From assembly GCA_038238915.1 (NCBI GenBank), contig JBBSFH010000003.1, positions 105,294 to 169,293 on the forward strand: a DNA stretch of 64,000 bases, written 5' to 3'. Each line of letters begins with the position of its first letter. Within the stretch, counting starts at the first letter, position 1. Below the pieces are notes generated by a model. The model had not been told where the DNA came from, did not search any database, and worked only from the letters and a program-made list of their open reading frames with translations. The position numbers and the translations under genes were made by a program. This stretch comes from Sphingomonadales bacterium (GTDB taxonomy: Bacteria; Pseudomonadota; Alphaproteobacteria; Sphingomonadales; Sphingomonadaceae). Positions 49,642-64,000 of this stretch are shown here, one piece after another.

Positions 49642-49644
49642 GGC

Positions 49645-50619
49645 TCAGGCCGCGAGCGCCGCCCACGGCGAGCGCGCGGGCGCGGTCACCGGCGCGGCGG
49701 TTGGGCCAGTGGCGGGAGAAGCGGCGGGCGCGCTCGCCTCGCCGATCTTGAGCGACAGTTGCAGCCAATCGATCGCGGCGGGGATCACCGGATGATCGAG
49801 CGCGACCAGCGGACCGGCGGTCGTGACGAGCTTGGGCGCGGCGTCCGCCAGCCACGACAGGATCGTCATCCCCGCCGCCGCCCGGCTGGCGTGGAGCGAA
49901 GTGTGCACATCGGGGAGCCGACCCATGCGCAGCGCCCCCGCGACCGCGCCCCAGACGTCGTGCGCGCCAAGCGCGAGGCGCAGATCGGGGTGGTGGAAGA
50001 TCGCGAACGCGGCCTTGATCGTGGCGAGCAGATCCTGCGCCATCATTACGGTGAGCCCGCTCGCAGCATTGGCCAGCCCCTCGGCAACGCGCGTGGCGGC
50101 GCGGCGCACGCGCGCCTGCTGCTGGAGGCCGCCCCACTGCGGATTGGTGGCGGCTTCATCGAGTTTGTAGAGCGCCTCGGTCAGTTCGATCATATCGGTT
50201 TCGAAATCGGCGTTGCCGGGATGATCGGCGGCGGCGACGCCGGTATCGCTGCCGAACAGGCGCGCGAATAGCGCCGCGCGCTCGTCCGGCGTGGCGCGCG
50301 TGTGGCGGTGTTGCCAGAATTGGGCGACATCGGGGGCGGCTCCGCCGAGTGCGAATGGAACGCCCGCACCGCTGAGCCCGGTCAGCGCCTCGGCAGCCCC
50401 GATCAGCCCGGCTGCATCGAGTTCGGCGGCAAGATACAGCCCCGCGATCGCGCGCAGTTGCGCGGAATCGGCGGTCGCGATGGGTGGCGGCAGGTCGATG
50501 CCCAGATCTTCGAGCGCCGTGGCAAAGCTGTGCGCTTGCGCGATCAGCCGCTCGGCCTCGCCGATCGCGCGCAACATCGTGGGTGCGTCGGGCGCTTCGT
50601 GGAGAGGACGCCCGGCCAT
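49645..50619 (-). CDS. Unknown family 2, short member (324 aa, all-helical)
   Basis: Blocks FWQHRHTRATPDERAALFARLFG, NADFETDMIELTEAL and HHPDLRLALGAHDVWGAV align to the C-terminal half of the 612-aa protein at 54210..56048. The start overlaps the stop of paralog B by 1 nt (TGATG). Confidence 0.7.
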   Translation of the reverse strand: MAGRPLHEAPDAPTMLRAIGEAERLIAQAHSFATALEDLGIDLPPPIATADSAQLRAIAGLYLAAELDAAGLIGAAEALTGLSGAGVPFALGGAAPDVAQFWQHRHTRATPDERAALFARLFGSDTGVAAADHPGNADFETDMIELTEALYKLDEAATNPQWGGLQQQARVRRAATRVAEGLANAASGLTVMMAQDLLATIKAAFAIFHHPDLRLALGAHDVWGAVAGALRMGRLPDVHTSLHASRAAAGMTILSWLADAAPKLVTTAGPLVALDHPVIPAAIDWLQLSLKIGEASAPAASPATGPTAAPVTAPARSPWAALAA

Positions 50620-51830
50620 CAGGCGTGCGCCGGGGCGGGCGTTGCGGCGGCGGCGGAGGGTTTGTTGGGATTGTACGGGAGCGAATTGCCCTGGATGACG
50701 CTCATCATCTCGGGCGTCGCCATCTTCTCCAGCGGCAGGTAATCGCTCTTGAAGTTGACGCGCACGTCGCCCGAGAGCTTGGCCTTGACTTCGGCCTTGC
50801 TTTCGCTCGTCTCATCGACCGCCGAGCCGACGGTGGCCATATGTTCCTGGACGTTTTCGTTGGTGTCGCTCGCGGAAACGCCCCAGCCGCTGAATCCCGC
50901 AGACGCCACGTTGCGGTTCATCGAGCTTTCCTTGTCGAACATCGATGCGCGCGCATCGGTCTTGGCAGTATCGCTCGCGCGCATATCGAACACGACTTTG
51001 GCATTTATTGACCCATCCGTAATAACTATGCGGTTTATACCGAGCATGACCATCGATGATAGCAGTTGCTGGCGTTGGCGAGCCATCTGCAATCTTGCGG
51101 CGGTGACGAGACGCGCCTCCGCGTTCGCGTCCGACAGATCAGTGATCGGCGGGTTGATGTTCATCTCGGCACTGATCTTGGCAAGCGCAACGGCGGGATC
51201 GTCGCCAACCGGCACGAGACGAGCGACGGGCGGCGCGGGATCGCCCTCGGCGAACGACGAGCTGCTCGAGATGTCGACAGCAAGCGCATCGGGAAAGCGC
51301 CCGGCGAGATAATCACGCCCCGCGCCCTCGCCGATATTGTCGGTCATGAATTGATCGACGGTCTTGGCGACGTTGGAGATCAGCTCGCCATAGGCTCGCA
51401 TCTGTTGCATCGAACTTTCGACGATCGCCTGGAAGACGTTCTTGATCAGACCACCGACGAACTTGGGGAAATCGACCTTCTGCACCAGCGCGCCGAACTG
51501 CTCGACACCCTGTTTGACCGCGCCCGCCTCGAAATTTTTGCCGACTTGTCCGGGTAGTCCCTTGGTAAGTTTGCCAAAGTTCTTGATGCCATCTGCCTGA
51601 TCCATCGCGCTCGCGGTAGGCGGCGTCGGCGTCGCCGACAGCGCGGTGCTCACCGCGTTCGGATCGGCGATGTAGCTCATCACTTTCACCATATCGCGCG
51701 CGAGCTGCTGCTGTTCGGGCTGCGGCAGTGCGCCAAACGCGGGGGCGGCGATCAGCATATCGCGCACCTGCGGACGCACGGCGGCAAGCGCCTGCCCGCT
51801 TGTCCAGCCGGGCGGATCGGCGAGCGCCAC
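50619..51830 (-). CDS. Unknown family 1, paralog B (403 aa)
   Basis: Blocks DFPKFVGGLIKNVFQAIVESSMQQMRAYGELISNVAKT, RQRQQLLSSMVMLGINRIVITDGSINAKVVF and VRVNFKSDYLPL. Confidence 0.75.
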   Translation of the reverse strand: MALADPPGWTSGQALAAVRPQVRDMLIAAPAFGALPQPEQQQLARDMVKVMSYIADPNAVSTALSATPTPPTASAMDQADGIKNFGKLTKGLPGQVGKNFEAGAVKQGVEQFGALVQKVDFPKFVGGLIKNVFQAIVESSMQQMRAYGELISNVAKTVDQFMTDNIGEGAGRDYLAGRFPDALAVDISSSSSFAEGDPAPPVARLVPVGDDPAVALAKISAEMNINPPITDLSDANAEARLVTAARLQMARQRQQLLSSMVMLGINRIVITDGSINAKVVFDMRASDTAKTDARASMFDKESSMNRNVASAGFSGWGVSASDTNENVQEHMATVGSAVDETSESKAEVKAKLSGDVRVNFKSDYLPLEKMATPEMMSVIQGNSLPYNPNKPSAAAATPAPAHA

Positions 51831-51834
51831 GGCC

Positions 51835-53136
51835 TTACGCCCGGGCGGGAGCGGCGGCGGGCGCGGCGGCGGCTGGCGGCGGCGTGGCCACGCGTGCCGA
51901 CGGCAACACGTTGGGATCGACCGGCGTGGAGTTTCCCTGGATCGCGGCGATCATGCCGGGCGTCGCCATCTTGTCCAAGGGCAGGTAATCGCTTTTGAAG
52001 TTGACTTCGACCGCGCCCATCAAATCGGCCGACGCCTGCAAGGACTCGACGCTCGAATCCTGCGCCGCGCTCATCGCGGTGATGATAGGCTTATTCTCGA
52101 ACTGGTATGTGCCCTTGGCGTAACGCTCGCTCGAACTGTCGACCGCGCCGTCCTTGTCGCGGGTGTAATTACCCTTACTGCTGCCATCGTAGGTGCCAGA
52201 CCCCGCGTAGGTCGTCTGGACGTTGCCATTCTGGTCGCGCGCCATGTCCATCGCCTGCGCGCTACGCTCGAGTTTACGGTTTTCCGCCGCTTGGAACTTG
52301 AACATCACCTTGGCCGAAATCTTGCCGCTGGTGACGACGATGCGATTGATGCCAAGCAGGACGGTGCTCGCCATCATCTGCTGGCGCTGCTTGGCAAGCT
52401 GCATTCGCGCGCCGACGACGAGCGCGCGCTCGACATTCTCGTCCGAGAGATCGAGGCTTTTCAGCTCGCCGTTCTCGAAACTCATCGAGCTGTTGACCTT
52501 CGCCCGCGCCTCACCCTCGTCCACCCCCTCGCGCAATTTCAGCTTGGGCTGCGGGTTGTCGCTCATCTCGTCGACGCCGATTTCGAACATGTCGGGGAAC
52601 TTTTGCTTAACATGATCGCGGCCGGCGTTTTCGGAGACATTGTCTTTCATGAATTCTTCCAGCGATTTGGCCACACTGGCGACCATCTTGCTGAATTCTT
52701 CCATCTGGGTAATCGACGTGTGAACGATCGCGTCGAACACGTTGGTGATCAGCCCGCCGACGAAGCCGGGAAAGTTGATGCCCTGGACGTAGTTGACCGC
52801 CGCAGTCACGCCCGCGTTGATCGCATCGGCCTTGAACCCACCCTTGCCGATCTCGCTCACTGCCTTCTGATGATCCTGAAACGTCCCCTCCTGTACCGGA
52901 CCGAAGGCACGCGCTGCGGGCGCGATGCCAAGGCCACCCGGAAGCCGCTGGCCCTCAAAACCCTCGGGCGCAGCCAGATAATCGGAGACAAGCGCCAGAT
53001 CCTTGGCGAGCGCGCGCTGCTTCTCGGGCGACATTGCAGCAAACGCGGGGCTACGCGTGAGAAGCCCGCGCACCGCCTCGCGCACTTCGGCGCGCGGGGT
53101 GGGCAGACGGACCGGGGGGGCGGAGGGCGGATGCAT
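51835..53136 (-). CDS. Unknown family 1, paralog C (433 aa)
   Basis: Blocks NFPGFVGGLITNVFDAIVHTSITQMEEFSKMVASVAKS, KQRQQMMASTVLLGINRIVVTSGKISAKVMF and VEVNFKSDYLPL. The N-terminal block PRAEVREAVRGLLTRSPAFAAMSPEKQRALAKDLALVSDYLAAP is shared with A and B. Confidence 0.75.
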   Translation of the reverse strand: MHPPSAPPVRLPTPRAEVREAVRGLLTRSPAFAAMSPEKQRALAKDLALVSDYLAAPEGFEGQRLPGGLGIAPAARAFGPVQEGTFQDHQKAVSEIGKGGFKADAINAGVTAAVNYVQGINFPGFVGGLITNVFDAIVHTSITQMEEFSKMVASVAKSLEEFMKDNVSENAGRDHVKQKFPDMFEIGVDEMSDNPQPKLKLREGVDEGEARAKVNSSMSFENGELKSLDLSDENVERALVVGARMQLAKQRQQMMASTVLLGINRIVVTSGKISAKVMFKFQAAENRKLERSAQAMDMARDQNGNVQTTYAGSGTYDGSSKGNYTRDKDGAVDSSSERYAKGTYQFENKPIITAMSAAQDSSVESLQASADLMGAVEVNFKSDYLPLDKMATPGMIAAIQGNSTPVDPNVLPSARVATPPPAAAAPAAAPARA

Positions 53137-53162
53137 CGGACTTCACTCCGTCTTGGAAGGGA

Positions 53163-54197
53163 TCAGGCGGCGAGTTGCTGGAGCGCCTGCGGACTCACCT
53201 CGAACTCGGCCGGACGCAGATAAAGGCTGATGCGCGGCGGCGCGTTGACGCCAGCGCGCACCGAGAGGATCGAGAAACGCCCGGGCCATACCTCGTCCTC
53301 GGGCGTGAACGCGGTCATCCAGCGACTGAGCGCGGCGAGTTCGCGCGGGCGTTCGGACATGCCGAGCGTCAGCAGGCTCAAAAACTCGGGCGGCAGATCG
53401 GGGATGCGCGCCAGCTGGACGTACAGCTCGAATTCGGGGCCGTGGTGCCCGATCCCGAACGCCATCAACGCCGAGGCGGGAGGAAGCTCGAAGCGCCCGC
53501 CGAGCACCAGGCCCAGGATTTGCATGATGCCGGGCAACCGCTCCCCCATCCCCAGTTCGTCGAGCACCGGACCGAGATCGGAGAGTTTGAGCGCATCGGG
53601 ATAGATGAACGTCAGCCGCTGGCCGCCCATATCGCGCTGCGCGCTGATCGTGGTGAACAGCGGCCTCAGCCCCGGCAGCATCCGCTGCGCGGTGGTGACC
53701 ACCTGGAACAGCGCAGGCGGCAGCTGCATCATCGCGGCGGGCGAGGTTTCGTAATAGACCTTGGAGGCATACAACCCGTCGCTATCGGTCGCAGCGCCGA
53801 AGAACGCGCCATAATCGAGGTTGTCCGATCCGAACCCGCGATAGGGTTCGGAGCGCTCGTCGAACCAGCGCAGCGTATCGCGCCCCAGGAACGCGCCGAC
53901 CATGCGGCGCATCTCGCGCGTCGCCTCGTCGCGCCGGTCCGCACCGCTTGCCTGCGGGGGCAGCGGTTCGATCGTGAAGCGGAGCTTGACGGGCTGCGTC
54001 TCCGAAAAGCTCGGCTCGAACGGTGCGGCCATCGGCGAGAGCGCGTTCCTCGCATAGCGCGGATCGCCTGCGGGCATCGGAAAGGTGCGGCCGATCAGGT
54101 CCGCCATCGGCGGTCCGGGATCGGCGGCTCCCAGCGCGCGCGCCGCCTGCGCGAGCCGCTGGGTGACCTTGGCGGAGAGGGGTTGGATGCGCATCAT
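53163..54197 (-). CDS. Hypothetical protein, possibly ABBA/DMATS-like aromatic prenyltransferase fold (tentative)
   Basis: 344 aa with recurring beta-strand motifs spaced like alpha-beta-beta-alpha repeats: VKLRFTIEPL, SKVYYETSP, QRLTFIYPD, EFELYVQL, RISLYLRPAEF. Assigned by pattern only. Confidence 0.3.
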   Translation of the reverse strand: MMRIQPLSAKVTQRLAQAARALGAADPGPPMADLIGRTFPMPAGDPRYARNALSPMAAPFEPSFSETQPVKLRFTIEPLPPQASGADRRDEATREMRRMVGAFLGRDTLRWFDERSEPYRGFGSDNLDYGAFFGAATDSDGLYASKVYYETSPAAMMQLPPALFQVVTTAQRMLPGLRPLFTTISAQRDMGGQRLTFIYPDALKLSDLGPVLDELGMGERLPGIMQILGLVLGGRFELPPASALMAFGIGHHGPEFELYVQLARIPDLPPEFLSLLTLGMSERPRELAALSRWMTAFTPEDEVWPGRFSILSVRAGVNAPPRISLYLRPAEFEVSPQALQQLAA

Positions 54198-54209
54198 GAT
54201 GCTCTCTCC

Positions 54210-56048
54210 CTAGTGACGTTGTGCGTTGCCGTTGCGCATTCCCATGCCCATTGCCGCGCCCGGGATCTCGTCCAGGAACTCGCGCGCGAACGCCGGGATC
54301 TGCACGGGTTGCGAGGTCATCACCGGAGACATTCGCGGCTGGCTCATCTCGTCCACACGGCTGTCCGACGTGGCGGTATCGGCGAGCCAGAGTTCGCACG
54401 CGTTGACGAGATCATAGTCGGACGGGTTTTTGGTCGCCTGGCTCGACAGCGTTGGCGCGGGCGAGCGCACGTCCATCATGTCGATCAGCACGCCCATCGG
54501 GCGCATGATCTTCACGATGTTGTTCGCCAGCCACGCGGTGATGATCGCGCCGCAGGTCGCGAGTACGCGGTAACGCGAACTGGTGCGCGCGCCGTGGAGG
54601 TCGCGCGTGGCGACCACGTCGATCACGCCCCACATGTCCTTGGCACCATGCGCGGCCTTGATCTCGGGATCGTCCAGGAGCGCGATCATCTGCTTGATCT
54701 CGCCCTGCAGTTCGAGCGCGGCGTAGTAAGTCATGCCAAAGCCGTGCAGCGACAGATTGGAGGCAAGATCGCGCGCCGCCTTGCGCATCTGCTGTGCTCC
54801 GGTTGCACTCGGCATCGCCGCGCGCAGCAGCTTGTCGACGTCCTGGTTGCGCACGAACTGCGAGACCGAGGAGACGAAGCGCAGCCACAGATCATTAAAA
54901 TCGGTATTGCCCTGGATCGCCGGATTCCCACCCGGCTGGCCCATCGTCATCGCGTAGAGATCGCGCCGCTCGGGCTCGCTCATGCGGTTGGGCGATTCCT
55001 TCCAGCGCTTGTAGAGGATTTGCCCGGCATTGCCCTTGCCGATCGCGAGCATGCCATTCTGGGCATTTTCGAGCAGCTTGTCGACGACCTGGAAGGCTTT
55101 TAGCTCATCGAGCATCGCCGCGCAGATCACCGGCCCCATCAGGCGCACATTGTCCGACACGATCTCGGTGTTCGAGACCGCGTCCAGATCGGGCAGATCG
55201 ATACCGATTTCGCTGGTGACGCCGTTGCCGGCAATGTTCTGGACCGTATCCAGCGCCTCGCTGACCTTGCGGCTGAGCTGCGGCGTGAACTGATCGACTT
55301 GCTTGAGCGCAAGCGCGCGCATCACCTTGGCGAACTCGGTCGCATCTACGTTCTGTGCGGGAGGGTGGGTGCCCTGTGTGTAGTTGGTACTGCCGTCCTG
55401 GTCATCGGCAATGGCACCGAGCTGGCCCAGAATGGCGAGCACGCGGCTGGATAGCGGCTTGTACGATTGTGCCTCGCCAACCGCCTTGAAGAAGGCCTTC
55501 CCCATAGCGGGCATCAGTGGGCTATCGGCGTCGGAGATCAGCGCGAAGTCGATGAACTGGTCTTGGGGCTGATCAGCCGGGTTAGGCGGCACATAGCCAA
55601 GACTGATTTTGACGGGGGGCGGCGTCACGCCGTCCAGCACCAGCAACCCGATTGTCAGCGCGCAGTCCACTGCGTTCGCTGTGTTGAGATTGCCCTTGAG
55701 GAGTTTGAGTGCGACGCCCGGCGGCTCGGAATCGAGCGATCCGACCGGATTGCCGAGTGTATCGTTCAACAGGCCGGTCCGGGCGTTGAACTGATCGCGC
55801 GCGGCAACAAACAGCGGATCGCAAAACTCGCCGCGTTGATCGTCGATGACGTCGAGCGTCAGCGCGATCCGGGCGCGTTCGGCCTTCTCCTCGATCGAAT
55901 AGAAAACCTGATCGGTCTCGCGGCCGACCCCCTGGCCGCCACGCGAGCGGGCAGAGCGATCGAGCTGGATCAATCGTTCGTTCAGCCGATGCCGTTCGGC
56001 AAGCTCGCGCTGGGCGATATCGCGGTACTGGATGGTGGTCACACTCAT
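54210..56048 (-). CDS. Unknown family 2, long member (612 aa)
   Basis: ATG at 56048, 8 nt after AAGGAG, inside ORF 54210..56393. Alternative ATGs at 56102 and 56099 overlap the S8 stop. The C-terminal half (LYKRWKESPNRMSEPERRDLYAMTMG, NTDFNDLWLRFVSSV, DDPEIKAAHGAKDMWGVI) is paralogous to 49645..50619. Confidence 0.7.
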   Translation of the reverse strand: MSVTTIQYRDIAQRELAERHRLNERLIQLDRSARSRGGQGVGRETDQVFYSIEEKAERARIALTLDVIDDQRGEFCDPLFVAARDQFNARTGLLNDTLGNPVGSLDSEPPGVALKLLKGNLNTANAVDCALTIGLLVLDGVTPPPVKISLGYVPPNPADQPQDQFIDFALISDADSPLMPAMGKAFFKAVGEAQSYKPLSSRVLAILGQLGAIADDQDGSTNYTQGTHPPAQNVDATEFAKVMRALALKQVDQFTPQLSRKVSEALDTVQNIAGNGVTSEIGIDLPDLDAVSNTEIVSDNVRLMGPVICAAMLDELKAFQVVDKLLENAQNGMLAIGKGNAGQILYKRWKESPNRMSEPERRDLYAMTMGQPGGNPAIQGNTDFNDLWLRFVSSVSQFVRNQDVDKLLRAAMPSATGAQQMRKAARDLASNLSLHGFGMTYYAALELQGEIKQMIALLDDPEIKAAHGAKDMWGVIDVVATRDLHGARTSSRYRVLATCGAIITAWLANNIVKIMRPMGVLIDMMDVRSPAPTLSSQATKNPSDYDLVNACELWLADTATSDSRVDEMSQPRMSPVMTSQPVQIPAFAREFLDEIPGAAMGMGMRNGNAQRH

Positions 56049-56098
56049 GGCTGGTCTCCTTTGCTCCGGTTGGCCTTTGCGTTTGCGTTGCGTGGCCA

Positions 56099-57529
56099 TC
56101 ATCCGTCCTCGGTTTCGGGTTGGTCGTGGTCGATGAAACGATCGACCGCAGCGAGCGCGGCGGCGGCATCGAGTACCCCCGCGCCGCAGCCGGGTGCCGG
56201 GCCGGGGAAGGTACGCGCGGACGCGGCTAGCAGGTGCTTGATCATGGGCGGATCGAGCGGGAAGGCGCGGCGTTCGGCGCGCGCGATCATCAGCGCGACC
56301 GTCGCGGTGACGAATGGCGCGGCAAAGCTGGTGCCCGTCGCGCGCTGATAGCCTTCGAGCGCAGCGGTGAAGACGCGCTCGCCCGGCGCGCACAGCGCCA
56401 CATGATCGCCGCGCGTCGAGAAGCCGGTAGGCCGCATGTCCGCGCCGACTGCGCCCACCGCGATCACCTGCGGGTAGGCGGCAGGCCAGTAGACGGTTTC
56501 CTTGCCGTTGTTGCCGCTCGCGGCGACGAAGGCGCAGCCGCGGTCCGCACCATAGGCGATCACGTCGGCGTGCGGCTTGGGGATATGCGCTCCGAGCTGC
56601 GCATCGTCTGTGCCGAAACTGAGGTTGAGCACGCGCGCGCCCAGATCGATCGCGAGCTTGGCGGCGGCATCAAGATCGGCGATCGCACCCATGCCGATCG
56701 CGCCCGCGCGCCCTGGCAGCCGGGCCGCGCCGAGCGCGCGCATCGGCAACAGCTGCGCCTCGCCCGCCATCCCCGGCGGCATATCGAGGCCGAGCGCGCC
56801 GATGATCGCCGCGCAGGCCGAGCCGTGGCCGACATAATGATCGACCGGCTCATGATCGGGATTGTTCCCGCTGCTAAGGATCTCGACACCTTGGGCGACA
56901 TCGCTCTGGCCAAGATTGACGGTATCATAGCCCTGGCGGAAGCGGCGCGCGAATTCGGGGTGGGTGGGTGCGACGCCGCTATCGACGATGCCCACGATCA
57001 CGGTGCTGTCGCCGGGTTCGTAGGCGAGCGCCTGCGGGCCACGGATCATCGCCCACGGCGCCCACATCTCCCCGTCGTCGACCGTTTCGACCGCGAAGGC
57101 CATGTCGAAAGGATTGGCGGCGACATAATTGGGGCTTGCCCACTCGACCGTGCTTACAGCCGAGAGCGCGTCGACCAGATTGCCGAGCGCGGTGGTGCGA
57201 TCGGTTTTGATGAGGAAGGTGCGCGCGAGGCCGCTCGTCTGTTCGGCGTCGGTATAGTGGCGGTTGCGGGAGCCCTTGCGGCCGATATTGGCGGCGGACG
57301 TATGCAGCCGCGCAATCGCAACCTCGCCGCCGTGCGCATGCAGGATGCGATCGATCGCGCCGCCGTCCATCGTGCGTGCCGCCGGAGCCGCGTGGTCGCG
57401 CACGTCGTTTCTCGCGGGGATCGCGGCAGGCGCTTCGCCGAGCGCCACCTTGAGTAGCAGCGAGCCGGGCAGGCAGTAGGCGCTCGATCCGGGCGGAACC
57501 CAGGGCGCGGCGAGGCGGCGCATCGTCAT
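56099..57529 (-). CDS. Subtilisin-like serine protease (S8 family) without an obvious signal peptide
   Basis: Catalytic contexts GIVDSGVAPTHPEF (Asp), HYVGHGSACAAIIGA (His), VAASGNNG (oxyanion Asn) and ATGTSFAAPFVTA (Ser). About 150 aa of N-terminal pro-region. ATGA overlap with the upstream gene. Confidence 0.85.
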   Translation of the reverse strand: MTMRRLAAPWVPPGSSAYCLPGSLLLKVALGEAPAAIPARNDVRDHAAPAARTMDGGAIDRILHAHGGEVAIARLHTSAANIGRKGSRNRHYTDAEQTSGLARTFLIKTDRTTALGNLVDALSAVSTVEWASPNYVAANPFDMAFAVETVDDGEMWAPWAMIRGPQALAYEPGDSTVIVGIVDSGVAPTHPEFARRFRQGYDTVNLGQSDVAQGVEILSSGNNPDHEPVDHYVGHGSACAAIIGALGLDMPPGMAGEAQLLPMRALGAARLPGRAGAIGMGAIADLDAAAKLAIDLGARVLNLSFGTDDAQLGAHIPKPHADVIAYGADRGCAFVAASGNNGKETVYWPAAYPQVIAVGAVGADMRPTGFSTRGDHVALCAPGERVFTAALEGYQRATGTSFAAPFVTATVALMIARAERRAFPLDPPMIKHLLAASARTFPGPAPGCGAGVLDAAAALAAVDRFIDHDQPETEDG

Positions 57530-58317
57530 GCGTGTGCTCCCGTGCCGTTGATTGCGCCGTTAGCCACCGGCGGCGGTGGCGCGAACGGGCGCAGATCAAA
57601 CGCCATCGAGGTGGCGACCATAGGCGCGGGCTCGACGCGAAGTTCACCCGCCCATTGATGCGGCGCGGGTGCGAGCAGCAGTTCGTCCGCGCTCGCCTTC
57701 ACCACCGCTACCGGCTCGCCGCCAAGCGTCACCGATGGCGGCCCCGCCTGCATGAGGTTGCGCCCGCGCACGCGCATCAGCGGCATGTCGCCCTCGCCGC
57801 CGGGGACGGGCACCACATGCTCCATCAGCGGCGCGGACGCGCGTTCGAGTGCCTTGCGCAGCCGATCGATGGGCAGGTTGGTCACGCGCCCGATCGCTGA
57901 ATCGCCGCCACGCGCCATGCTCTCCTTGAGCTTTGAGACGGTGCGCACGCCGACCCATTCGAGCTTGCGGCGATCCTCCTCGGACAACCCGTCGCCCAGT
58001 TCGTCGAGCGAGGTATCATGCGGACCGTCCGCAAACGCGACCGCGTTCTCCTCGATCATCGGCCGGGTGATCGCGGCGAACACGAGGTGGAACACGCTCG
58101 CCTGCACATCCGCCGCCCCGGCCGGGCGAATGCGGATTTCGCCCGCCGTAAACTCCACCTGCGCGCGCAGATCGAGCGTGATGTCCTTGATCGCGAAGGT
58201 GAGCGGCAGATTGAGGTTATGCGCCTTCACCGCCATCGCGGTCTGCGCCTTATCGAGCTGGCTTTGCACCGCCTGAATGAAGTTTTCGAGCGGGAGGGCG
58301 GCGGTGGCGGTGGTCAT
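57526..58317 (-). CDS. Hypothetical protein (263 aa): N-terminal helix + beta-hairpin domain, HhH-like middle, IPT/TIG-like C-terminus
   Basis: ATG at 58317 inside ORF 57526..58419, with an ATGA overlap onto the 75-aa ORF. PLENFIQAVQSQLDKAQTAMAVKAHNLNLPLTFAIKDITLDLRAQVEF; LEWVGVRTVSKLKE...LPIDRLRKAL; MRVRGRNLMQAGPPSVTLGGEPVAVVKASADELLLAP. Confidence 0.6.
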   Translation of the reverse strand: MTTATAALPLENFIQAVQSQLDKAQTAMAVKAHNLNLPLTFAIKDITLDLRAQVEFTAGEIRIRPAGAADVQASVFHLVFAAITRPMIEENAVAFADGPHDTSLDELGDGLSEEDRRKLEWVGVRTVSKLKESMARGGDSAIGRVTNLPIDRLRKALERASAPLMEHVVPVPGGEGDMPLMRVRGRNLMQAGPPSVTLGGEPVAVVKASADELLLAPAPHQWAGELRVEPAPMVATSMAFDLRPFAPPPPVANGAINGTGAHA

Positions 58318-58541
58318 GGCCGTGCCTCCCACGTGAGGTGGAGGCGCGAGGGGGGCGCATCGAACTGGGTTCGTGTGACGGTGCGCGGGAAATCGGCGAA
58401 CAGCGCGCCGCCGGTCCACGCGATTTCGATGGGGAGCTTCATTTCGATGCGGGTGACGCGCACGCCGACGCTACCGCCCGCGACCATTGCGCCCTCGGCC
58501 ACCTCCGCGATCATATCGCCCATTTGGCGCCGCGCGCTCAC
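58314..58541 (-). CDS. Small hypothetical protein (75 aa)
   Basis: MSARRQMGDMIAEVAEGAMVAGGSVGVRVTRIEMKLPIEIAWTGG... Coupled on both sides: its GTG start overlaps the stop of paralog D (GTGA) and its TGA stop overlaps the next ATG (ATGA). Confidence 0.5.
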   Translation of the reverse strand: MSARRQMGDMIAEVAEGAMVAGGSVGVRVTRIEMKLPIEIAWTGGALFADFPRTVTRTQFDAPPSRLHLTWEARP

Positions 58542-59677
58542 CGTGTTGCTCCAGCGGGTGCGGGCGGCGGGGCGGACGCGATCACGACCGGCGGGGGCAG
58601 CGTGGCGACGGCGCTTGGGGGTTGCGTTGGTGCAATCGGTGGCGTGGCAGCGCGCTGCGGTCCGCGCGCGTGGCGTTCGAGCTGGCCGCGCTTGGCATCG
58701 TCCACGAAACGATCGAGCGGCACGGTCTCGCTGGCGAAGTTGATCTTCACTTCGCCAAATAACTGCGCCTTGAGTTCGCTATCGGCCTGGACATTGACGC
58801 CCATGGTCGAAACCTTCGTCGTCGGAGCGTCGTAGGTGGTCGAGCCGCGCGCTCCCCACTGTGTCGCATTGCTTTGCGGATCCGAACCGGTCGCATAATC
58901 GAATTTCTTGTGATCGGCAGCAGACGCGCGGAAGCGGACGTTGGCGTTGATCGAGCCATCCTTGACCACAACGCGATTCATTCCGAGCAGCACCATCGTC
59001 GAGAGCGTCTGCAACCGCTGCTTCGCCACGGTCTCGCGCGCATGGGCGAGGATCTGCTGTTCGAGCACCTCCGAAGTCAGTTCCTGTCCTTCCAGGCCAT
59101 AATCTGCGAGCACGCGCGGTGCCTCCGCCTCCCCGTCCGGCCCGGCTGTCCTGGCGATCGGCACCAATGTTGGTGTGCCGCTTTCGTGGTTCAGCGCCAC
59201 GTCACGCGGATATTGTTCGACAAGATAGTCACGCGCCTGGTTCGGCGTGACATTCTCCTGCGTGAATTGTTCGAGCGGCTTGGCGACGGCTGCGACAAGG
59301 TCGGCGAAGCTCTCCATCTGGCGGATCGACGCGTCGACGATCGCGTCGAACGTGCCGTGGACCAGGCTGGCAACGAAGGCGGGGAAATCGACTTCATCGA
59401 CAAGGTTGCCCACGCGCCGCCCGAGCGCGTCGGTTGCGAGTTCGCGCTTGGCGGGCGGAGAGGCGGGCGCTGGCGTTTGCGACGCGCTATCGGCGGGCGG
59501 GCCCGCCGCGTCGGGAATCTCGCGCCCGAACGCATCGCGCGCGAGGCTGCGCACGAGCGGCGCACGGCCGTAACTCGGCGGTGGAGGAGGGGGGCGCAGA
59601 CCCGGCACGTGCAACCGATCAGGCGCTGACGTGGAGGGGATCGAGTTCCCATTCGTTGGTGCGGTCGTGACGCCCAT
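58538..59677 (-). CDS. Unknown family 1, paralog D (379 aa; start uncertain, overlaps the end of the upstream gene by 59 nt)
   Basis: Blocks DFPAFVASLVHGTFDAIVDASIRQMESFADLVAAVAKP, KQRLQTLSTMVLLGMNRVVVKDGSINANVRF and VKINFASETVPL. Pro-rich N- and C-termini. Confidence 0.7.
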   Translation of the reverse strand: MGVTTAPTNGNSIPSTSAPDRLHVPGLRPPPPPPSYGRAPLVRSLARDAFGREIPDAAGPPADSASQTPAPASPPAKRELATDALGRRVGNLVDEVDFPAFVASLVHGTFDAIVDASIRQMESFADLVAAVAKPLEQFTQENVTPNQARDYLVEQYPRDVALNHESGTPTLVPIARTAGPDGEAEAPRVLADYGLEGQELTSEVLEQQILAHARETVAKQRLQTLSTMVLLGMNRVVVKDGSINANVRFRASAADHKKFDYATGSDPQSNATQWGARGSTTYDAPTTKVSTMGVNVQADSELKAQLFGEVKINFASETVPLDRFVDDAKRGQLERHARGPQRAATPPIAPTQPPSAVATLPPPVVIASAPPPAPAGATR

Positions 59678-62600
59678 CGCCGTGCAGGATCACGCGAACC
59701 GCCGATCGATGCTCGGGCTGCGTGGCGTGGGTGAAACGATGGCGCAGTTCGACCGTCATCCCCGCAACCGTCTCGCTGTCCGGCCCGTCGAGGACTTCTC
59801 CCTCGACCGCAAGTGACCAGCCGTCGCTCAGCCCCGCATTCTCGGGCATCACGCGCACATCGCCGACCGTGCCGCCGCCATAATGCCACGCGATCTTGAC
59901 CGCGCCGAAGGTTCTGCCGTGCTCGTCGGGCATTCGGGGCCAGTCCGCGACGCTGATCATCCCGGACTGGATATCGGCGTTCATCATGACTTGCGTTCGA
60001 GGCGCGCGCATGCCGTCCAGCTGTTCGAGCGAGAAGGTTACCCCGTCGCGTGCGGTGGTTTCGGTGCGGCGCATCCCCAACGGCGGCGGCCCGACGTCCA
60101 GCCCGCGCGCGGCGGTGCGCGTGGGCGGGGGCGGGGCCATGCGGCGCGGCGCGTAGGATTGCGCGTAGCCCGCCGGAGGCGATCCCCGGTTGGGCTGACG
60201 GCCGCCGGTGTCGGGCGCGTACATGATTTGCAGGATATTGTCCTCGACGCGCGCTTGCCGCATCTCGTAATCGTTCATGAACTCCTCGAAGCGCATGATG
60301 TAGCGGCTGCCTGTCGTGTGTGTATCCAGGTAGCTGCCGGGCGCTTGCGGTGTTCCGACCACGCGGTCCCAAGGGTCGGCGACGCGAACATAGGCGTTGG
60401 TGCCGTCCGAATAGAGGCCGACCACCACAACCGCGTGACCGCTATCGAACCCCGTCTGCCCCGGTGCCATGAGTTTGGTGACCACCATCGGGCCGTGCGC
60501 TTCAACCAACTGGCGGAAGCCATCGACGTTGAAGCATTGCGGCGGCCCAACTTCGAGTCCTACCTGCTTGGCAAACCGCGCCCGGGCCGCAGCGAGCGGC
60601 GATTGCCCGTCGGTGAGCGAAATGGCGCACAGCCGCGCCAGCATGTCCTCGTCTACCGATACGCGGTCGCGCCATCCAACAACCATGGCGGTTGCAGCGC
60701 CGACGCAGGTCGTACCGGTATGCTGCGGAACCAGGTCCACATCGTCCCAGGTGACGCTGAACGCGCCCGAGTCCATCGCGCGCGCGGGGGTGGATTTCGC
60801 ATACGCCAGCAGATGCCCGAACAGCCCGCCCGAGGGCGCGGCCTTCAGGTGGCCGATGTAGCGCAGCTTGGAGAAGTCGAAGCGCAGATTGGCGATATCG
60901 TCGGGCGAGGCCCAGTTGGGCTGTTCCGACGTGAGCGGTTGTCCTGCGGCGCGATAGGCTTCGAGCACCAGTTCCGAACAGAAAAAGCTGTCGTTGGAAG
61001 CCGTGCCCATGTCGATTCGGCCCGCGAACGCGCGGCAGCGGTCGGACAGGCCGTTGGGAAGCGCCGAGCACAGGCGCTGATCGATCTGGAACAGCGCCTG
61101 GCGCGCGATGCCGATGTGGTTGTAATCCTGCCCGATGTGGGCGGCGGCGGCGTCGGCCACCTGCTGGCGCTGATCGCGCGTGAGGCCGGGCACCCGGAAC
61201 GCGACTGCGACCGTGGCCGAAGCGATCGCGTCGCCGAGAGGCACCATGCGCACGCCCTCGCCCACCGCTTCGATCACCTGCCCGCCCTGATCCACATACA
61301 GCATCACGTGGCTGACCTGCCCGCTGGTGGCGGCGCGGATCGCACGGCTGATCGTCGCGTCCGTAGTCGAAAGGATGATGTCGCCCACCTGGAGCGCGTT
61401 CATCCCGATCGACTGGCCGCCGACGCCCGGATCGAGCGGGATTTCCGCATCGAACAGGCGGGCGGTGCGCGGGGGGAGGCCAAGCGACTGGCCGGTGGGC
61501 AGCGATACGCGTTGCTGGATCATCTGCATGAAATGATCCCAGTCCCACGGCGCGGCGTTGGGACAGGATGTATGCGTGGTGTGCGCGTCCGCTTCCGAAT
61601 GGCCGATGATGTGCGTGCGATCGGTCGGGATCGAGTATTTGTCGCAGAGATAGCTGACCAGCGCGGCCGATTCGGCGTATTGGATATCGGTGGGCGGTAG
61701 CGCAGGCAGCGTGGTGCGCCCGTAGGTCGCGCCGCGCTGGTTCACGCAGACGTGCTCAATCCCGATACTGCGCGAATTGACCCCGTGTGCGTGCCACGCG
61801 ATGTCCAGTTCGCGCACGAACTGCACGATCTCGCCATCCTGGCCCACGAGGTAATGAGCGCTCGAGTTCGCGTCGGCGCGCGTGAAGTGGCCAACCGTGC
61901 TTCCGGTCGTGTTCGCGTCGGTGATGTGGATGACGACGCGATCGATCGTGCGGCCCGGCCGAGAGGTGAAGGCGGGCGAGGCCTCGAAGCGCGATGCGCG
62001 CGGGTAATCGGGCGTCGCGGCGAGCGCGCCTGACCATGCCTGCGTCTGCACGGACGGATCGCTCGCGGCGGGGCCCTCAATCCCCATCGTATCGGGATCG
62101 ACGTCCATCGCACTGGCGCGCGGCCCGCATTCTCCGAGCGCCGCCGCCATGCCGAGCGTGGTCGCGACCGAACGCTGGACCGAGACGTAGAAATCGACCG
62201 GCGAGAAGCCTGCGCCCACGCCCACCTGCGCGCTCACGCCCTGGAAATTGGCCTGGGTATCGAACAGCGCCGATGCGCCCGCCACGATCCCCTCGCCGCC
62301 CGAGATGGTCGCCGAATTGCTCCAGCCGCCGAACGCATCGATCGCGCCACGTATCACGGTGATTTGCACCGACGCATTGACCGACAACACGAAGCCGACA
62401 TCGAACTGCGCGCTGCCGTAGACGCCCAGGCTGTTGTCGGGACCGAAGATGATGCCAGCCCCCAAAGTGCCGCCCGCGCCCAATCCTGCGCCCACGGACG
62501 GCCCGAGGCCGATCGACACGGGCGTGCCCGCAGCAGCCGATGCGGTTGCGGCAAGGCGGAGTGCAGCGATCATCGGTGCGAGCGGGCCGGTCAGCACCAT

Positions 62601-63410
62601 CAGCGCGGCATCGGCGGCCACCCGCGCGACGCCGCTCAGGCGGGTGACCGGGGGTGCCGTCACCGGGTTGCGCACGGACCCGATTGTCACGTCGTTCGAC
62701 ATCGCGCTCGCGGGGCTTCGTGTGCCGTTCCATGCCATCGACTTGGCTGCGGCGGGGGGTGGGGTCGATGTGGCTGGGGACGGCGTTGCTGCCGACGTGG
62801 ACGGGGCGGATGCGCTGGCCTTGTCCGGCGCTGGTGCGGTAGGCGCAGGCGCAGGCATCGGGCCGAAGCCGTCGTCATAATGCGCCGCAGGTGGCGGATT
62901 GGTGTTCGCGGGCTGACTGCTTGCGCGTTCGGCGGGGCGCTGGCCGGGCTGGGCGGTATCGCCAGCCCAGTCGAGCAAACCCTCGCCCGGCCCGCGCGCC
63001 CGGCCGGGGATTACCCGCACCCGGCGCAGACTGCGGCCGGTCAGCGCGCGTAGCGAGACATAGGGGCTATCCGTAGTGGGGAGGACTTCCACTTCGAAGG
63101 CCCCAGGCCCTGTCGCGGGCGCGGTTGCGAGCCCGAAATAGAGCTTCTCCGATCCGACGAACCGCGCGAGGATTTCGGGCGGCAGCACATAGACCGCCTC
63201 GCCGCGAGGGGCTGCGAGCGGACCGCCCGCACGGCTCGAATAGAAATTGCCCGCCGAACGCCGCGCCTTGCCCTCGGGTGCCAGCAGTGCGGGATCGGTC
63301 GCGACGGCCACCTCGGCGCGGCGAGGTTCGCCGTGGGTGCGGATGGTGAAGCCCAGCATCGGGAAGCGGTCGTTCACCTCGAGGCGGGTCGGGCGGATCA
63401 TCGCTGGCAT
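59619..63410 (-). CDS. Giant multidomain protein (1263 aa): unknown N-domain, Pro-rich linker, Gly-zipper hydrophobic region, Amidase_2 (PGRP-type N-acetylmuramoyl-L-alanine amidase), YiiX/permuted-papain NlpC/P60-like domain, second papain-like Cys peptidase domain, unknown C-domain
   Basis: ATG at 63410 follows the TAG of the upstream gene inside ORF 59619..63731. Amidase_2: RTIDRVVIHITDANTTG...AHYLVGQDGEIVQFV...AWHAHGVNSRSIGIEH...IIGHSEA...CPN (nt ~61512-61958). YiiX-like: QVGDIILSTTDATISRAIRAATSGQVSHVMLYV...NDSFFCSELVLEAY (nt ~60897-61400). Papain-like: QHTGTTCVGAATAMVVGW...DSGHAVVVVGLYSDG...VRVADPW (nt ~60252-60764). Gly-rich: GLGPSVGAGLGAGGTLGAGIIFG... (nt ~62142-62639). Confidence 0.8.
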   Translation of the reverse strand: MPAMIRPTRLEVNDRFPMLGFTIRTHGEPRRAEVAVATDPALLAPEGKARRSAGNFYSSRAGGPLAAPRGEAVYVLPPEILARFVGSEKLYFGLATAPATGPGAFEVEVLPTTDSPYVSLRALTGRSLRRVRVIPGRARGPGEGLLDWAGDTAQPGQRPAERASSQPANTNPPPAAHYDDGFGPMPAPAPTAPAPDKASASAPSTSAATPSPATSTPPPAAAKSMAWNGTRSPASAMSNDVTIGSVRNPVTAPPVTRLSGVARVAADAALMVLTGPLAPMIAALRLAATASAAAGTPVSIGLGPSVGAGLGAGGTLGAGIIFGPDNSLGVYGSAQFDVGFVLSVNASVQITVIRGAIDAFGGWSNSATISGGEGIVAGASALFDTQANFQGVSAQVGVGAGFSPVDFYVSVQRSVATTLGMAAALGECGPRASAMDVDPDTMGIEGPAASDPSVQTQAWSGALAATPDYPRASRFEASPAFTSRPGRTIDRVVIHITDANTTGSTVGHFTRADANSSAHYLVGQDGEIVQFVRELDIAWHAHGVNSRSIGIEHVCVNQRGATYGRTTLPALPPTDIQYAESAALVSYLCDKYSIPTDRTHIIGHSEADAHTTHTSCPNAAPWDWDHFMQMIQQRVSLPTGQSLGLPPRTARLFDAEIPLDPGVGGQSIGMNALQVGDIILSTTDATISRAIRAATSGQVSHVMLYVDQGGQVIEAVGEGVRMVPLGDAIASATVAVAFRVPGLTRDQRQQVADAAAAHIGQDYNHIGIARQALFQIDQRLCSALPNGLSDRCRAFAGRIDMGTASNDSFFCSELVLEAYRAAGQPLTSEQPNWASPDDIANLRFDFSKLRYIGHLKAAPSGGLFGHLLAYAKSTPARAMDSGAFSVTWDDVDLVPQHTGTTCVGAATAMVVGWRDRVSVDEDMLARLCAISLTDGQSPLAAARARFAKQVGLEVGPPQCFNVDGFRQLVEAHGPMVVTKLMAPGQTGFDSGHAVVVVGLYSDGTNAYVRVADPWDRVVGTPQAPGSYLDTHTTGSRYIMRFEEFMNDYEMRQARVEDNILQIMYAPDTGGRQPNRGSPPAGYAQSYAPRRMAPPPPTRTAARGLDVGPPPLGMRRTETTARDGVTFSLEQLDGMRAPRTQVMMNADIQSGMISVADWPRMPDEHGRTFGAVKIAWHYGGGTVGDVRVMPENAGLSDGWSLAVEGEVLDGPDSETVAGMTVELRHRFTHATQPEHRSAVRVILHGDGRHDRTNEWELDPLHVSA

Positions 63411-63414
63411 GGGG

Positions 63415-63798
63415 CTACCTCGGTCCGATGGGCGACGCGGGCGTCGCGGGGTTGGTGTGCGTTGGAAGCGGACGGGCACGCGCGCGGATCGCGCGGCGCT
63501 CGAAATCGGGGACGCTGCCGAGTAGCGCGCTGAGCGCATCATCATCGGTGACCTCGGCAATCGGTCCATGTGCGGCCTCGAAGCGCTCGACCGCGTCCGA
63601 AAACAGCCGCGCGAACAGCTTGGCCTGCACCGGTCCCGCCACGATGCGCGAATGGACGTGGACCGAGTCGGTCTCGGGGCGGAACTGGCCGAAATCCAGC
63701 AGGAACTCGAAGGCATTGTGGCCGACTTCACAATAGTTCGCGTAAACCGCGAGCGGTGCGCCGTTGGTAGCCGGGGCGAGTGCGGGTGGGGTCATCAC
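63415..63798 (-). CDS. DUF3467-like small protein (first gene of the sigma-54 operon)
   Basis: (GTG)MMTPPALAPATNGAPLAVYANYCEVGHNAFEFLLDFGQFRPE...VHSRIVAGPVQAKLFARLFSDAVERFE. The YAN..V.H...EF.LDF core matches my recollection of DUF3467. Confidence 0.6.
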   Translation of the reverse strand: MMTPPALAPATNGAPLAVYANYCEVGHNAFEFLLDFGQFRPETDSVHVHSRIVAGPVQAKLFARLFSDAVERFEAAHGPIAEVTDDDALSALLGSVPDFERRAIRARARPLPTHTNPATPASPIGPR

Positions 63799-63807
63799 GC
63801 AGCGCGA

Positions 63808-63823
63808 TGCAATCGGCGTGCCA
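63808..63823 (-). promoter_or_regulatory. Sigma-54 (RpoN) -24/-12 promoter
   Basis: The minus strand reads cTTGGCACgccgaTTGCATcgcg, which is TGGCAC-N5-TTGCA, the full consensus. It lies in the 121-nt gap between the Fis-HTH regulator stop (63920) and the operon's first start codon (63798/63795). Confidence 0.6.
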
Positions 63824-63919
63824 AGCCGAAACAGCGCGGGTGAGGGCGGGAGACAGCGTTCCGGCGATCCGATGTTACAAGCGCGGTGTCACATCGGCCC
63901 CGGCACTGCGAGACACCCG

Positions 63920-64000
63920 TTACACGCCAACGCTGCGTTCGATGTTGTAGTGCGCAAGCTTGCGGTAGAGCGTCATGCGCGACCAGTTGAGTGCCTTGGC
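63920..64000 (-). CDS. 3' end (last 26 codons) of a Fis-type HTH regulator, probably a sigma-54 enhancer-binding protein; the rest lies outside the window
   Basis: The minus-strand frame reads ...AKALNWSRMTLYRKLAHYNIERSVGV*. This is the characteristic C-terminal HTH_8 (..S..TLYRKL..Y.I) of NtrC-family activators. Confidence 0.55.
   Translation of the reverse strand, partial: AKALNWSRMTLYRKLAHYNIERSVGV

What the first reader, a model, noticed from the sequence alone, without database searches (positions are those of the whole stretch)
63795..64000. Consensus sigma-54 promoter next to a Fis-HTH activator gene, giving an almost leaderless first gene
Seen in the sequence: the minus strand has TGGCAC-gccga-TTGCAT (63823-63808), a 10/10 match to the -24/-12 core. 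The last 26 codons of the upstream gene read ...LNWSRMTLYRKLAHYNI..., the C-terminal HTH of NtrC-type enhancer-binding proteins. Established knowledge: EBPs are usually encoded next to their target sigma-54 promoters. The oddity is that the -12 GC lies only about 11-14 nt from the first possible start codons (GTG 63798, ATG 63795). The predicted transcript would then start at or within a few nt of the start codon, making it a leaderless mRNA. By my rough estimate, a chance 10-position match anywhere in the window is around 0.1-0.2. A match in exactly this gap is far less likely.
Basis: partly seen in the sequence, partly recalled or inferred. Interest (0 to 1): 0.6.

Follow-up and report, generated by a model that had tools for sequence, protein, structure and literature searches.

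The report
Sigma-54 promoter abutting a start codon
A real sigma-54 promoter sits 14 bases before the ATG of a small DUF3467 gene, so its message should have almost no leader, and this layout, with a sensor-less activator and its binding sites, recurs in front of tail-like injection systems and an unknown lysis-type operon in several phyla.

Summary
TGGCACgccgaTTGCA lies at 63823-63808 (minus strand). It is the only exact match in the window (0.03 expected). It is one of 20 in a genome that has rpoN and seven activators.

The upstream gene is a true sigma-54 activator with Walker A, GAFTGA, an AAA lid and a Fis-type HTH. It has no sensor domain (311 aa, PspF-like).

The only usable start codons of the DUF3467 gene are GTG 63798 and ATG 63795. 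They lie 11 and 14 nt after the C of the -12 GC, and there is no Shine-Dalgarno sequence.

Across 148 unique homologous loci, 82% carry a sigma-54 motif upstream, against 1-3% in controls. 104 of 120 carry TGTNACA heptamers, a likely enhancer, 60-fold enriched.

In 27 loci from Alpha- and Betaproteobacteria and Acidobacteriota the ATG lies 13-19 nt after the C, without an SD. The start is ATG in 27 of 28 such loci, against 31 of 66 in leadered relatives. Caulobacter 5'-RACE data place sigma-54 start sites 12-14 nt after that C. This predicts a 0-2 nt leader here.

I found no paper describing this pairing.

The same front end drives either a 12-gene lysis-type cassette or tail-sheath (eCIS) loci.

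The parts
63920..64000 (-). 3' end (last 26 codons plus TAA stop at 63922-63920) of the sigma-54 enhancer-binding protein gene. The whole gene runs beyond the window to G000:C3:170148 (311 aa: AAA+ domain then HTH_8, no sensor domain).
63869..63897 (.). Candidate enhancer (UAS): the dyad CCGATGTGACA-N7-TGTAACATCGG, which holds two TGTNACA heptamers (63893-63887 and 63879-63873). Its centre is about 87 nt upstream of the predicted start site.
   Evidence: The heptamer is 60-fold enriched upstream of the promoter in 120 homologous loci.
63918..63924 (-). Third, degenerate heptamer TGTAACG, overlapping the activator's stop codon.
63818..63823 (-). -24 element TGGCAC (GG at 63822-63821).
63808..63812 (-). 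-12 element TTGCA (GC at 63810-63809).
63795..63797 (-). Predicted transcription start, 12-14 nt after the C of the GC. This gives a 5'UTR of 0-2 nt.
   Evidence: Inference from geometry. Calibrated on Caulobacter 5'-RACE data (PMC4287350 S15). Not mapped here.
63415..63795 (-). DUF3467 gene (126 aa, ATG 63795, TAG 63417-63415). It has no SD and is the first gene of the operon.
63418..63421 (-). Ordinary Shine-Dalgarno GAGG, 7 nt before ATG 63410 of the second gene. This shows that the genes after the first have a conventional SD.
   Evidence: read directly
59619..63410 (-). Second gene: a 1263-aa protein with Amidase_2, C92 and C70/C39-like hydrolase domains.
48166..59677 (-). Rest of the co-oriented cassette: four paralogs of an unknown family, a subtilase S8 and other proteins with no family match.
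   Evidence: Earlier notes e1-3001719 and e1-3001720.

Best explanation
This is a complete sigma-54 control unit. The gene just upstream, on the same strand, encodes a 311-aa enhancer-binding protein made only of the AAA+ sigma-54-activation domain and a C-terminal Fis-type HTH, the same build as PspF and HrpS. It most likely binds the TGTNACA heptamers at 63893-63873. From there it remodels the sigma-54 holoenzyme sitting on TGGCAC-N5-TTGCA (63823-63808). Transcription should start 12-14 nt after the -12 C, at or 1-2 nt before ATG 63795. The first cistron (DUF3467) would then be carried on a leaderless mRNA and translated by 5'-AUG recognition without a Shine-Dalgarno sequence. The following genes, from 63410 on, use ordinary SDs. 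Shown here: the motif, the activator's domains, rpoN, the conserved heptamers, the conserved spacing, ATG-only starts and the absence of an SD. Inferred: the start site, EBP binding to the heptamers, and leaderless translation. One consequence, also inferred: an internal AUG without an SD is poorly used, so DUF3467 would be made only from sigma-54-initiated transcripts. Read-through from the activator gene would not yield it.
For: There is one exact motif in the window against 0.03 expected. The genome has 20 exact copies, rpoN and seven EBPs, one of them adjacent to this promoter. The EBP has Walker A and GAFTGA. Pfam finds Sigma54_activat 9e-67, AAA_lid_14 and HTH_8. Only about 8 residues precede the AAA+ domain, after the SD GGGGAG. 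The homologs' open frames allow only 10-25 residues there, and the protein aligns to PspF from residue 3. GTG 63798 and ATG 63795 are the only start codons ahead of the DUF3467 domain. Met1 is conserved in at least 90% of 55 homologs. Of 148 unique loci, 82% have a sigma-54 motif scoring at least 9 of 11 upstream in sense orientation, against 1.4% antisense, 0.8% in coding sequence and 2.9% in shuffles. In 27 loci the ATG lies 13-19 nt after the C (mode 14). Only 1 of those 27 has an SD-like word. ATG is the start in 27 of 28 against 31 of 66 in leadered loci, Fisher p = 1.7e-6. In-frame ATGs in that window number 30 against about 6 expected. The leaderless state is clustered on the protein tree but present in several clades and phyla. 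TGTNACA occurs 1.66 times per locus against 0.027 in controls. Caulobacter sigma-54 start sites lie 12-14 nt after the C. In the same genome, flgA and a flagellar SLT-like gene have an ATG 13 nt after a sigma-54 motif. The SLT-like spacing is kept at 12-14 nt in all three species of the genus.
Against: No 5' end has been mapped. There is no terminator between the activator gene and the promoter, so read-through transcripts with a long leader cannot be excluded. In 66 related loci the same promoter is followed by a 30-50 nt leader with an SD, so the leaderless layout is not required for the system. In loci with 16-19 nt spacing the leader would be 3-7 nt, at the edge of the usual 5-nt definition. 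Binding of the EBP to TGTNACA is inferred from position and conservation only.
Confidence: 0.75

Rival explanations
1. The sigma-54 promoter is real, but DUF3467 is mainly translated from a longer transcript. That transcript would be read-through from the activator gene or start at an unrecognised upstream promoter. The promoter sequence would then lie inside the 5'UTR and the gene would not be leaderless in practice.
For: No terminator-like hairpin lies between the EBP stop codon and the promoter. The two genes are co-oriented and only 124 nt apart.
Against: There is no SD within 17 nt of the ATG, here or in 26 of 27 loci of this type. The near-exclusive use of ATG and the narrow 13-19 nt spacing make no sense for an internal start. 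No sigma-70-like promoter is found.
Confidence: 0.12
2. The sigma-54 transcript starts at the ATG but its first cistron is translated poorly or not at all. The promoter would really serve the SD-bearing genes from 63410 onward, and the abutting ATG would be a tolerated by-product of intergenic compaction.
For: Leaderless translation is inefficient in some bacteria (E. coli; background in PMC3616915). The second gene has a good SD.
Against: DUF3467 is strongly conserved as a protein, with 55 homologs and many invariant residues. It is always the first gene. The ATG-only rule and the in-frame enrichment (30 against 6 expected) indicate selection for a usable 5'-AUG. Alphaproteobacteria have many leaderless mRNAs: 171 in S. 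meliloti and 192 in B. japonicum.
Confidence: 0.1
3. The -24/-12 match is a chance occurrence and the gene has some other promoter.
For: With one mismatch allowed, such motifs are expected by chance (1.65 per window).
Against: The exact match has an expectation of 0.03. It lies next to a cognate EBP. The motif is present in 82% of 148 homologous loci against 1-3% of controls.
Confidence: 0.01

Closest known systems
Canonical sigma-54 (-24/-12) promoters with upstream enhancers, for example glnAp2, nifH, pspA (own knowledge; consensus TGGCAC-N5-TTGCW)
   Same: The locus has a perfect -24/-12 core, an adjacent bEBP with GAFTGA, dyad or repeated enhancer sites about 80-100 nt upstream, and rpoN in the genome.
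   Different: The start codon is 14 nt from the -12 C, so there is essentially no 5'UTR and no SD. Described sigma-54 genes have leaders with an SD. Most other sigma-54 sites of this genome also appear to have an SD-bearing leader. I found no paper that describes sigma-54-driven leaderless mRNAs.
Leaderless mRNAs from sigma-70-type promoters whose -10 box abuts the ORF (Deinococcus-Thermus, PMC12340547; S. meliloti, PMC3616915; B. japonicum, PMC4842269)
   Same: The promoter element lies at a fixed short distance from an SD-less start, with a strict preference for AUG and conservation of the spacing.
   Different: The promoter class here is sigma-54, which is activator- and ATP-dependent, not sigma-70 with an (extended) -10 box. 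The B. japonicum study linked its leaderless set to a TGnTA extended -10 motif only.
PspF / HrpR-HrpS type enhancer-binding proteins (sensor-less bEBPs controlled in trans by PspA or HrpV; own knowledge; PspF structures 2bjw, 5nss)
   Same: The AAA+ domain begins at the N-terminus and a C-terminal HTH follows. There is no receiver, GAF or PAS domain. The controlled operon lies next to the activator gene and begins with a small conserved protein.
   Different: DUF3467 shows no sequence or fold similarity to PspA or HrpV. The activator gene is co-oriented with its target rather than divergent. The proposed enhancer is TGTNACA repeats. The cargo is a lysis-type cassette or an eCIS.
NifA upstream activator sequence TGT-N10-ACA (own knowledge)
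   Same: The enhancer site is a TGT...ACA dyad for a Fis-type HTH and lies about 100 nt upstream of a sigma-54 promoter.
   Different: Here the half-sites are separated by 1 nt (TGTNACA), and 2-5 copies are clustered. Binding has not been tested.

Membership tests
Sigma-54-dependent promoter | GG and GC doublets 10 nt apart within TGGCAC-N5-TTGCW | tested here: met
   11 of 11 consensus positions match at 63823-63808. The expectation is 0.03 per window.
Sigma-54-dependent promoter | Host encodes RpoN | tested here: met
   Sigma54_DBD hit of 194.7 bits in a 504-aa frame at C1:102594.
Sigma-54-dependent promoter | Cognate AAA+ activator with GAFTGA loop | tested here: met
   The adjacent gene has Sigma54_activat at 9e-67 and the sequences GETGTGKE and GAFTGA.
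Sigma-54-dependent promoter | Upstream enhancer sites | tested here: inconclusive
   TGTNACA repeats are conserved and 60-fold enriched at -70 to -120 from the -24 element. Protein binding was not tested.
Sigma-54-dependent promoter | Transcription depends on RpoN and the EBP, with a start 12-14 nt after the GC | not testable with these tools
This needs wet-lab work or RNA data.
Leaderless mRNA | Primary 5' end within 5 nt of the start codon | not testable with these tools
   Predicted only. C 63809 plus 12-14 nt gives 63797-63795. Calibration comes from Caulobacter 5'-RACE.
Leaderless mRNA | AUG start codon | tested here: met
   ATG at 63795. ATG is the start in 27 of 28 loci with this spacing, against 31 of 66 in leadered loci.
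Leaderless mRNA | No Shine-Dalgarno sequence | tested here: met
   No GGAG/GAGG/AGGA/GGGA/AAGG word at -4 to -17 in the window's own locus. Only 1 of 27 loci has one.
Sensor-less bEBP (PspF/HrpS type) | AAA+ domain at the N-terminus, no regulatory domain, C-terminal HTH | tested here: met
   The start follows the SD GGGGAG, 8 residues before the AAA+ domain. Homologs allow only 10-25 residues there. The protein aligns to PspF residues 3-235. HTH_8 is found.
Sensor-less bEBP (PspF/HrpS type) | Trans-acting inhibitor encoded in the regulon (PspA or HrpV) | not tested
   DUF3467 is a positional candidate only. It shows no similarity to PspA or HrpV.
DUF3467 (PF11950) | Pfam model above the gathering score | tested here: met
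   51.6 bits against a cut-off of 25, E = 1e-13, residues 17-80.

The most novel reading that the evidence does not exclude
The unit 'sensor-less EBP, then TGTNACA enhancer, then sigma-54 promoter, then DUF3467 as first cistron' would be a portable master switch. It turns on costly, probably lysis-linked machines: extracellular contractile injection systems in Acidobacteriota, Methylomirabilota and Binatia, and an undescribed 12-gene wall-lytic cassette in Proteobacteria. In this reading DUF3467 is the PspA/HrpV-like partner that feeds back on the activator. In the leaderless variants its 5'-terminal AUG ties its synthesis strictly to sigma-54 initiation, because read-through RNA cannot express it. 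More generally, sigma-54-driven leaderless mRNAs would be a widespread class of bacterial messages that has not been described.
Probability: 0.2. Interest if true: 0.8.

Novelty: new variant of a known kind. Interest (0 to 1): 0.62.

Why it matters
Sigma-54 promoters are the tightest off-switches bacteria have, and leaderless translation is the simplest way to start a protein. Finding the two fused and conserved across phyla matters in two ways. It gives a clean natural system for asking how a ribosome takes over an mRNA whose first base leaves an activator-remodelled polymerase. It also shows that annotation pipelines that expect a leader will miss or mis-start such genes; three homologs were called with false N-terminal extensions that run through the promoter.

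Separately, how extracellular contractile injection systems are switched on is largely unknown. This work identifies a concrete, testable regulator, its probable DNA site and its promoter. The same set is shared by eCIS loci and by an uncharacterised lysis-type cassette.

Tried and rejected
1. A search for the DUF3467 gene in 60 relatives of the same genus, family and order found none, so vertical conservation could not be used. I switched to public genome and metagenome loci.
3. Function of DUF3467 stayed unknown. There was no NCBIfam hit and no PDB sequence hit with the family profile. The AlphaFold model (pLDDT 73.7; three strands plus a long helix) gave no Foldseek PDB match better than E = 0.16. 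A SecB or secretion-chaperone idea and a PC4/Sub1-like resemblance (TM 0.5, not significant) were dropped.
4. A literature check for sigma-54 leaderless mRNAs came up empty. Two full-text searches gave 36 and 35 papers, and four were read at the relevant passages. None links the two. The S. meliloti RpoN table S10 was truncated in the held copy. The Barrios 1999 compilation was not found under the id I tried, which I recalled from memory.
5. The Caulobacter tables give no UTR lengths, so I could not tell whether any of its sigma-54 start sites is leaderless.
6. A scan for a sigma-70-type promoter or a terminator between the activator gene and DUF3467 found nothing.
7. My first automatic 'leaderless-like' class was contaminated by chance in-frame TTG or ATG codons far from the domain. 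It was replaced by stricter rules.
8. Out-of-frame ATGs at 11-19 nt (19 seen, about 12 expected) looked like possible leaderless mini-ORFs, for example MQGAG* in two Erythrobacter loci. They are close to background and I did not pursue them.

Full report
**The observation.** Read on the minus strand, the end of the window shows:
- the last 26 codons of a gene (...AKALNWSRMTLYRKLAHYNIERSVGV, TAA at 63922-63920);
- a 96-nt spacer;
- TGGCAC (63823-63818), gccga, TTGCA (63812-63808), T;
- cgcgctgc, then GTG (63798-63796) and ATG (63795-63793).

The exact pattern TGGCAC-N5-TTGCW occurs once in the 64-kb window. The expectation is 0.03, with 3 of 100 dinucleotide shuffles giving a match. With one mismatch allowed the pattern is no longer significant.

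**Is there a sigma-54 system?** The window is C3:105294-169293 of a 3.07-Mb assembly.
- The genome has one rpoN (Sigma54_DBD, 194.7 bits) and seven proteins with a strong sigma-54 interaction domain. One of these lies directly beyond the window's end.
- It holds 20 exact copies of the motif where about 1.4 are expected. Nearly all lie in front of ORFs, and most of these appear to have a 30-60 nt leader with a visible SD.

The motif is therefore used in this organism.

**The upstream gene.** I extended the frame beyond the window.
- It contains GETGTGKE (Walker A) and GAFTGA.
- Pfam finds Sigma54_activat (9e-67), AAA_lid_14 and HTH_8.
- The only start preceded by an SD is TTG/GTG at C3:170148/170145, after GGGGAG. 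It lies about 8 residues before the AAA+ domain.
- In 20 homologous loci the stop-to-stop frame leaves room for only about 10-25 residues there.
- The 311-aa protein aligns to the central domains of NtrC, ZraR, FleQ and NifA from its residue 8, and to PspF from residue 3.

It is thus a sensor-less activator of the PspF/HrpS build.

**The downstream gene.**
- The ORF 63795-63415 is a DUF3467 protein (PF11950, 51.6 bits, domain from residue 17).
- GTG 63798 and ATG 63795 are the only canonical starts before the domain. The next in-frame start, near residue 52, would cut the domain.
- Among 55 homologs the Met1 column is conserved in at least 90%. It is followed by 13-16 variable residues, which are disordered in the AlphaFold model, and then by the conserved PLAxYANYCEVGHNAFEFL block.
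- No SD-like word precedes the ATG.
- The next gene (ATG 63410) has GAGG 7 nt upstream.

**Comparative test.** The gene is absent from 60 genomes of the same genus, family and order, so it sits on an acquired island.
- Pattern searches returned 80 genome loci and 80 metagenome loci.
- Of 148 unique loci, 82% have a sigma-54 motif upstream in sense orientation (at least 9 of 11 positions, GG and GC fixed). The control rates are 1.4% antisense, 0.8% in downstream coding sequence and 2.9% in shuffles.
- An activator gene lies immediately upstream on the same strand in nearly all loci with enough flank.

Sigma-54 control of this DUF3467 subfamily is thus a family-wide trait.

**The spacing.** There are 121 unique loci with a motif.
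- In 27 loci an in-frame ATG lies 13-19 nt after the -12 C, with no SD. The counts are 13: 5, 14: 7, 15: 3, 16: 6, 17: 3, 18: 2, 19: 1.
- In 66 loci an SD-preceded start lies 30-50 nt or more downstream.
- 28 loci are ambiguous.
- Only 1 of the 27 has an SD-like tetramer.
- In the short-spacing class the start is ATG in 27 of 28 loci. In the leadered class it is ATG in 31 of 66, GTG in 32 and TTG in 3 (Fisher p = 1.7e-6).
- In-frame ATGs at 11-19 nt number 30 where about 6 are expected. The two other frames together have 19 where about 12 are expected.

A strict AUG requirement is the known signature of leaderless translation (PMC3616915).

On a tree of the proteins the leaderless state is clustered, needing 8 changes against 22.8 in shuffles. 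It still occupies several clades: Sphingomonadaceae, Sphingosinicellaceae, Usitatibacter (Betaproteobacteria), Bryobacteraceae, and metagenomic clades that group with the Acidobacteriota rows. Protein identity within these falls as low as 44%. The layout has therefore been maintained for a long time and probably arose or was lost several times.

**Where would transcription start?**
- In the Caulobacter 5'-RACE data set of RpoN-motif start sites (PMC4287350, S15), the 14-mer GG...TTGC begins at -26 in twelve good cases, at -27 in three and at -25 in two. That places +1 at 12-14 nt (mode 13) after the C of the GC.
- Applied here, +1 falls at 63797-63795, a leader of 0-2 nt.
- For the whole short-spacing class the predicted leader is 0-6 nt, mostly within the 5-nt definition quoted in PMC12754779.

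This is inference.

**Independent support inside the same genome.**
- Two flagellar genes show an ATG 13 nt after a sigma-54 motif. They are flgA (ChapFlgA; TGGCCC-N5-TTGCA) and an SLT-like gene (TGGCAC-N5-TTGCA).
- For the SLT-like gene, all three species of the window's genus keep a 12-14 nt spacing.
- Most other genera of the family that have the gene keep the promoter but show a longer leader of 30-43 nt, several with an SD-like G-rich stretch.

The lineage thus uses this architecture repeatedly.

**The enhancer.**
- Between the activator's stop and the promoter lies the dyad CCGATGTGACA-N7-TGTAACATCGG (63897-63869).
- Homologous loci from all phyla show 2-5 copies of TGTNACA in the same region.
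- The heptamer occurs 1.66 times per 160 nt upstream of the -24 element, against 0.027 in coding sequence and 0.025 in shuffles.
- It is present in 104 of 120 loci, and positions peak 70-120 nt before the -24 element.
- In 5 kb around the window's own locus it occurs only there.

These are very probably the activator's binding sites, but binding is untested. No sigma-70-like promoter and no terminator lie in this spacer, so read-through from the activator gene is possible.

**What the unit controls.**
- In 76 loci DUF3467 is followed by the cassette seen here. It comprises a giant protein with a conserved head and variable wall-hydrolase domains, paralogs of an unknown family, and a subtilase. 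Earlier notes e1-3001719, e1-3001720 and e1-3001723 describe that cassette.
- In 31 other loci the cargo is phage-tail-like: tail sheath, Pvc16_N, and an AAA ATPase with a winged-helix domain. That is an extracellular contractile injection system. These loci come from Acidobacteriota, Binatia, Methylomirabilota, Nitrospirota and others.
- Two of the tail-like loci (L141, L159) have the leaderless spacing.
- I found no paper linking such injection systems to sigma-54 or enhancer-binding proteins.

**What DUF3467 does remains unknown.**
- The model shows three strands, a long helix and two short helices. It has no significant match among solved structures.
- Only one paper in the library mentions the family, in passing.
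- The protein travels with the sensor-less activator whatever the cargo. A role as the activator's partner, in the way PspA serves PspF or HrpV serves HrpS, is therefore my preferred guess.
- This guess rests on position only. A chaperone or assembly role is equally open.

**Comparison with what is known.** Each component is ordinary: a -24/-12 promoter, a bEBP, and leaderless mRNAs in Alphaproteobacteria (171 in S. meliloti, 192 in B. japonicum). Two things appear new:
- their fusion, with strict spacing, ATG-only starts and no SD, conserved across phyla;
- the definition of this regulatory front end for tail-like injection systems.

Other agents of this scan noted the same sigma-54-abutting-ATG layout in unrelated genomes and also found no description in print. 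I treat these notes as leads, not evidence.

**Verdict.** It is a new variant of a known kind. The decisive missing piece is a mapped 5' end.

Noticed in passing
G000:C27:6591-8507 (loci L164, L165), outside the window: In the flagellar cluster, flgA (ATG at C27:6695) and an SLT-like gene (ATG at C27:7782) each start 13 nt after the C of a sigma-54 motif and have no SD. flgB, which is divergent, has a sigma-54 promoter with a normal leader. The SLT-like spacing is 12-14 nt in all three species of the genus. Most other genera with the gene keep the sigma-54 motif but have a longer leader of about 30-43 nt.
   Followed up: partly
L046, L141, L159, L056, L061, L044 and about 25 more loci: EBP-DUF3467 pairs sit directly in front of phage-tail-sheath, Pvc16_N and AAA+WHD genes, that is eCIS loci. 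These come from Acidobacteriota, Binatia, Methylomirabilota and Nitrospirota. This suggests a sigma-54/EBP switch for these systems that has not been described.
   Followed up: partly
L063:~6030 and L073:~1814 (Erythrobacter loci): In these leadered loci an out-of-frame ATG lies 14 nt after the -12 C. It opens a 5-7 codon mini-ORF (MQGAG*, MQGVADR*) that overlaps the SD of the real start. It could be a leaderless upstream mini-ORF or a relic of the leaderless layout, but the frequency is close to chance.
   Followed up: partly
P0005, P0009, P0013 (homologs): Gene callers gave these DUF3467 homologs N-terminal extensions of 12-30 residues that run through the sigma-54 promoter. The conserved Met lies inside them. 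This is probably a systematic mis-annotation of leaderless sigma-54 genes.
   Followed up: no
window 63824-63868, and the same region in homologs: Between the heptamers and the -24 element many homologs have an A/T-rich stretch resembling an IHF site, for example aaatcatgcgcttg and ttttcaacagcttag. The window's own spacer is G+C-rich and lacks it.
   Followed up: no
window 48166-59677: Ten consecutive minus-strand genes have no Pfam or NCBIfam hit apart from one subtilase. Four of them (g3, g8, g9, g11) are paralogs at 25-33% identity, and the synteny is kept in Burkholderia, Roseobacter, Desulfobulbus and Bryobacteraceae loci.
   Followed up: partly
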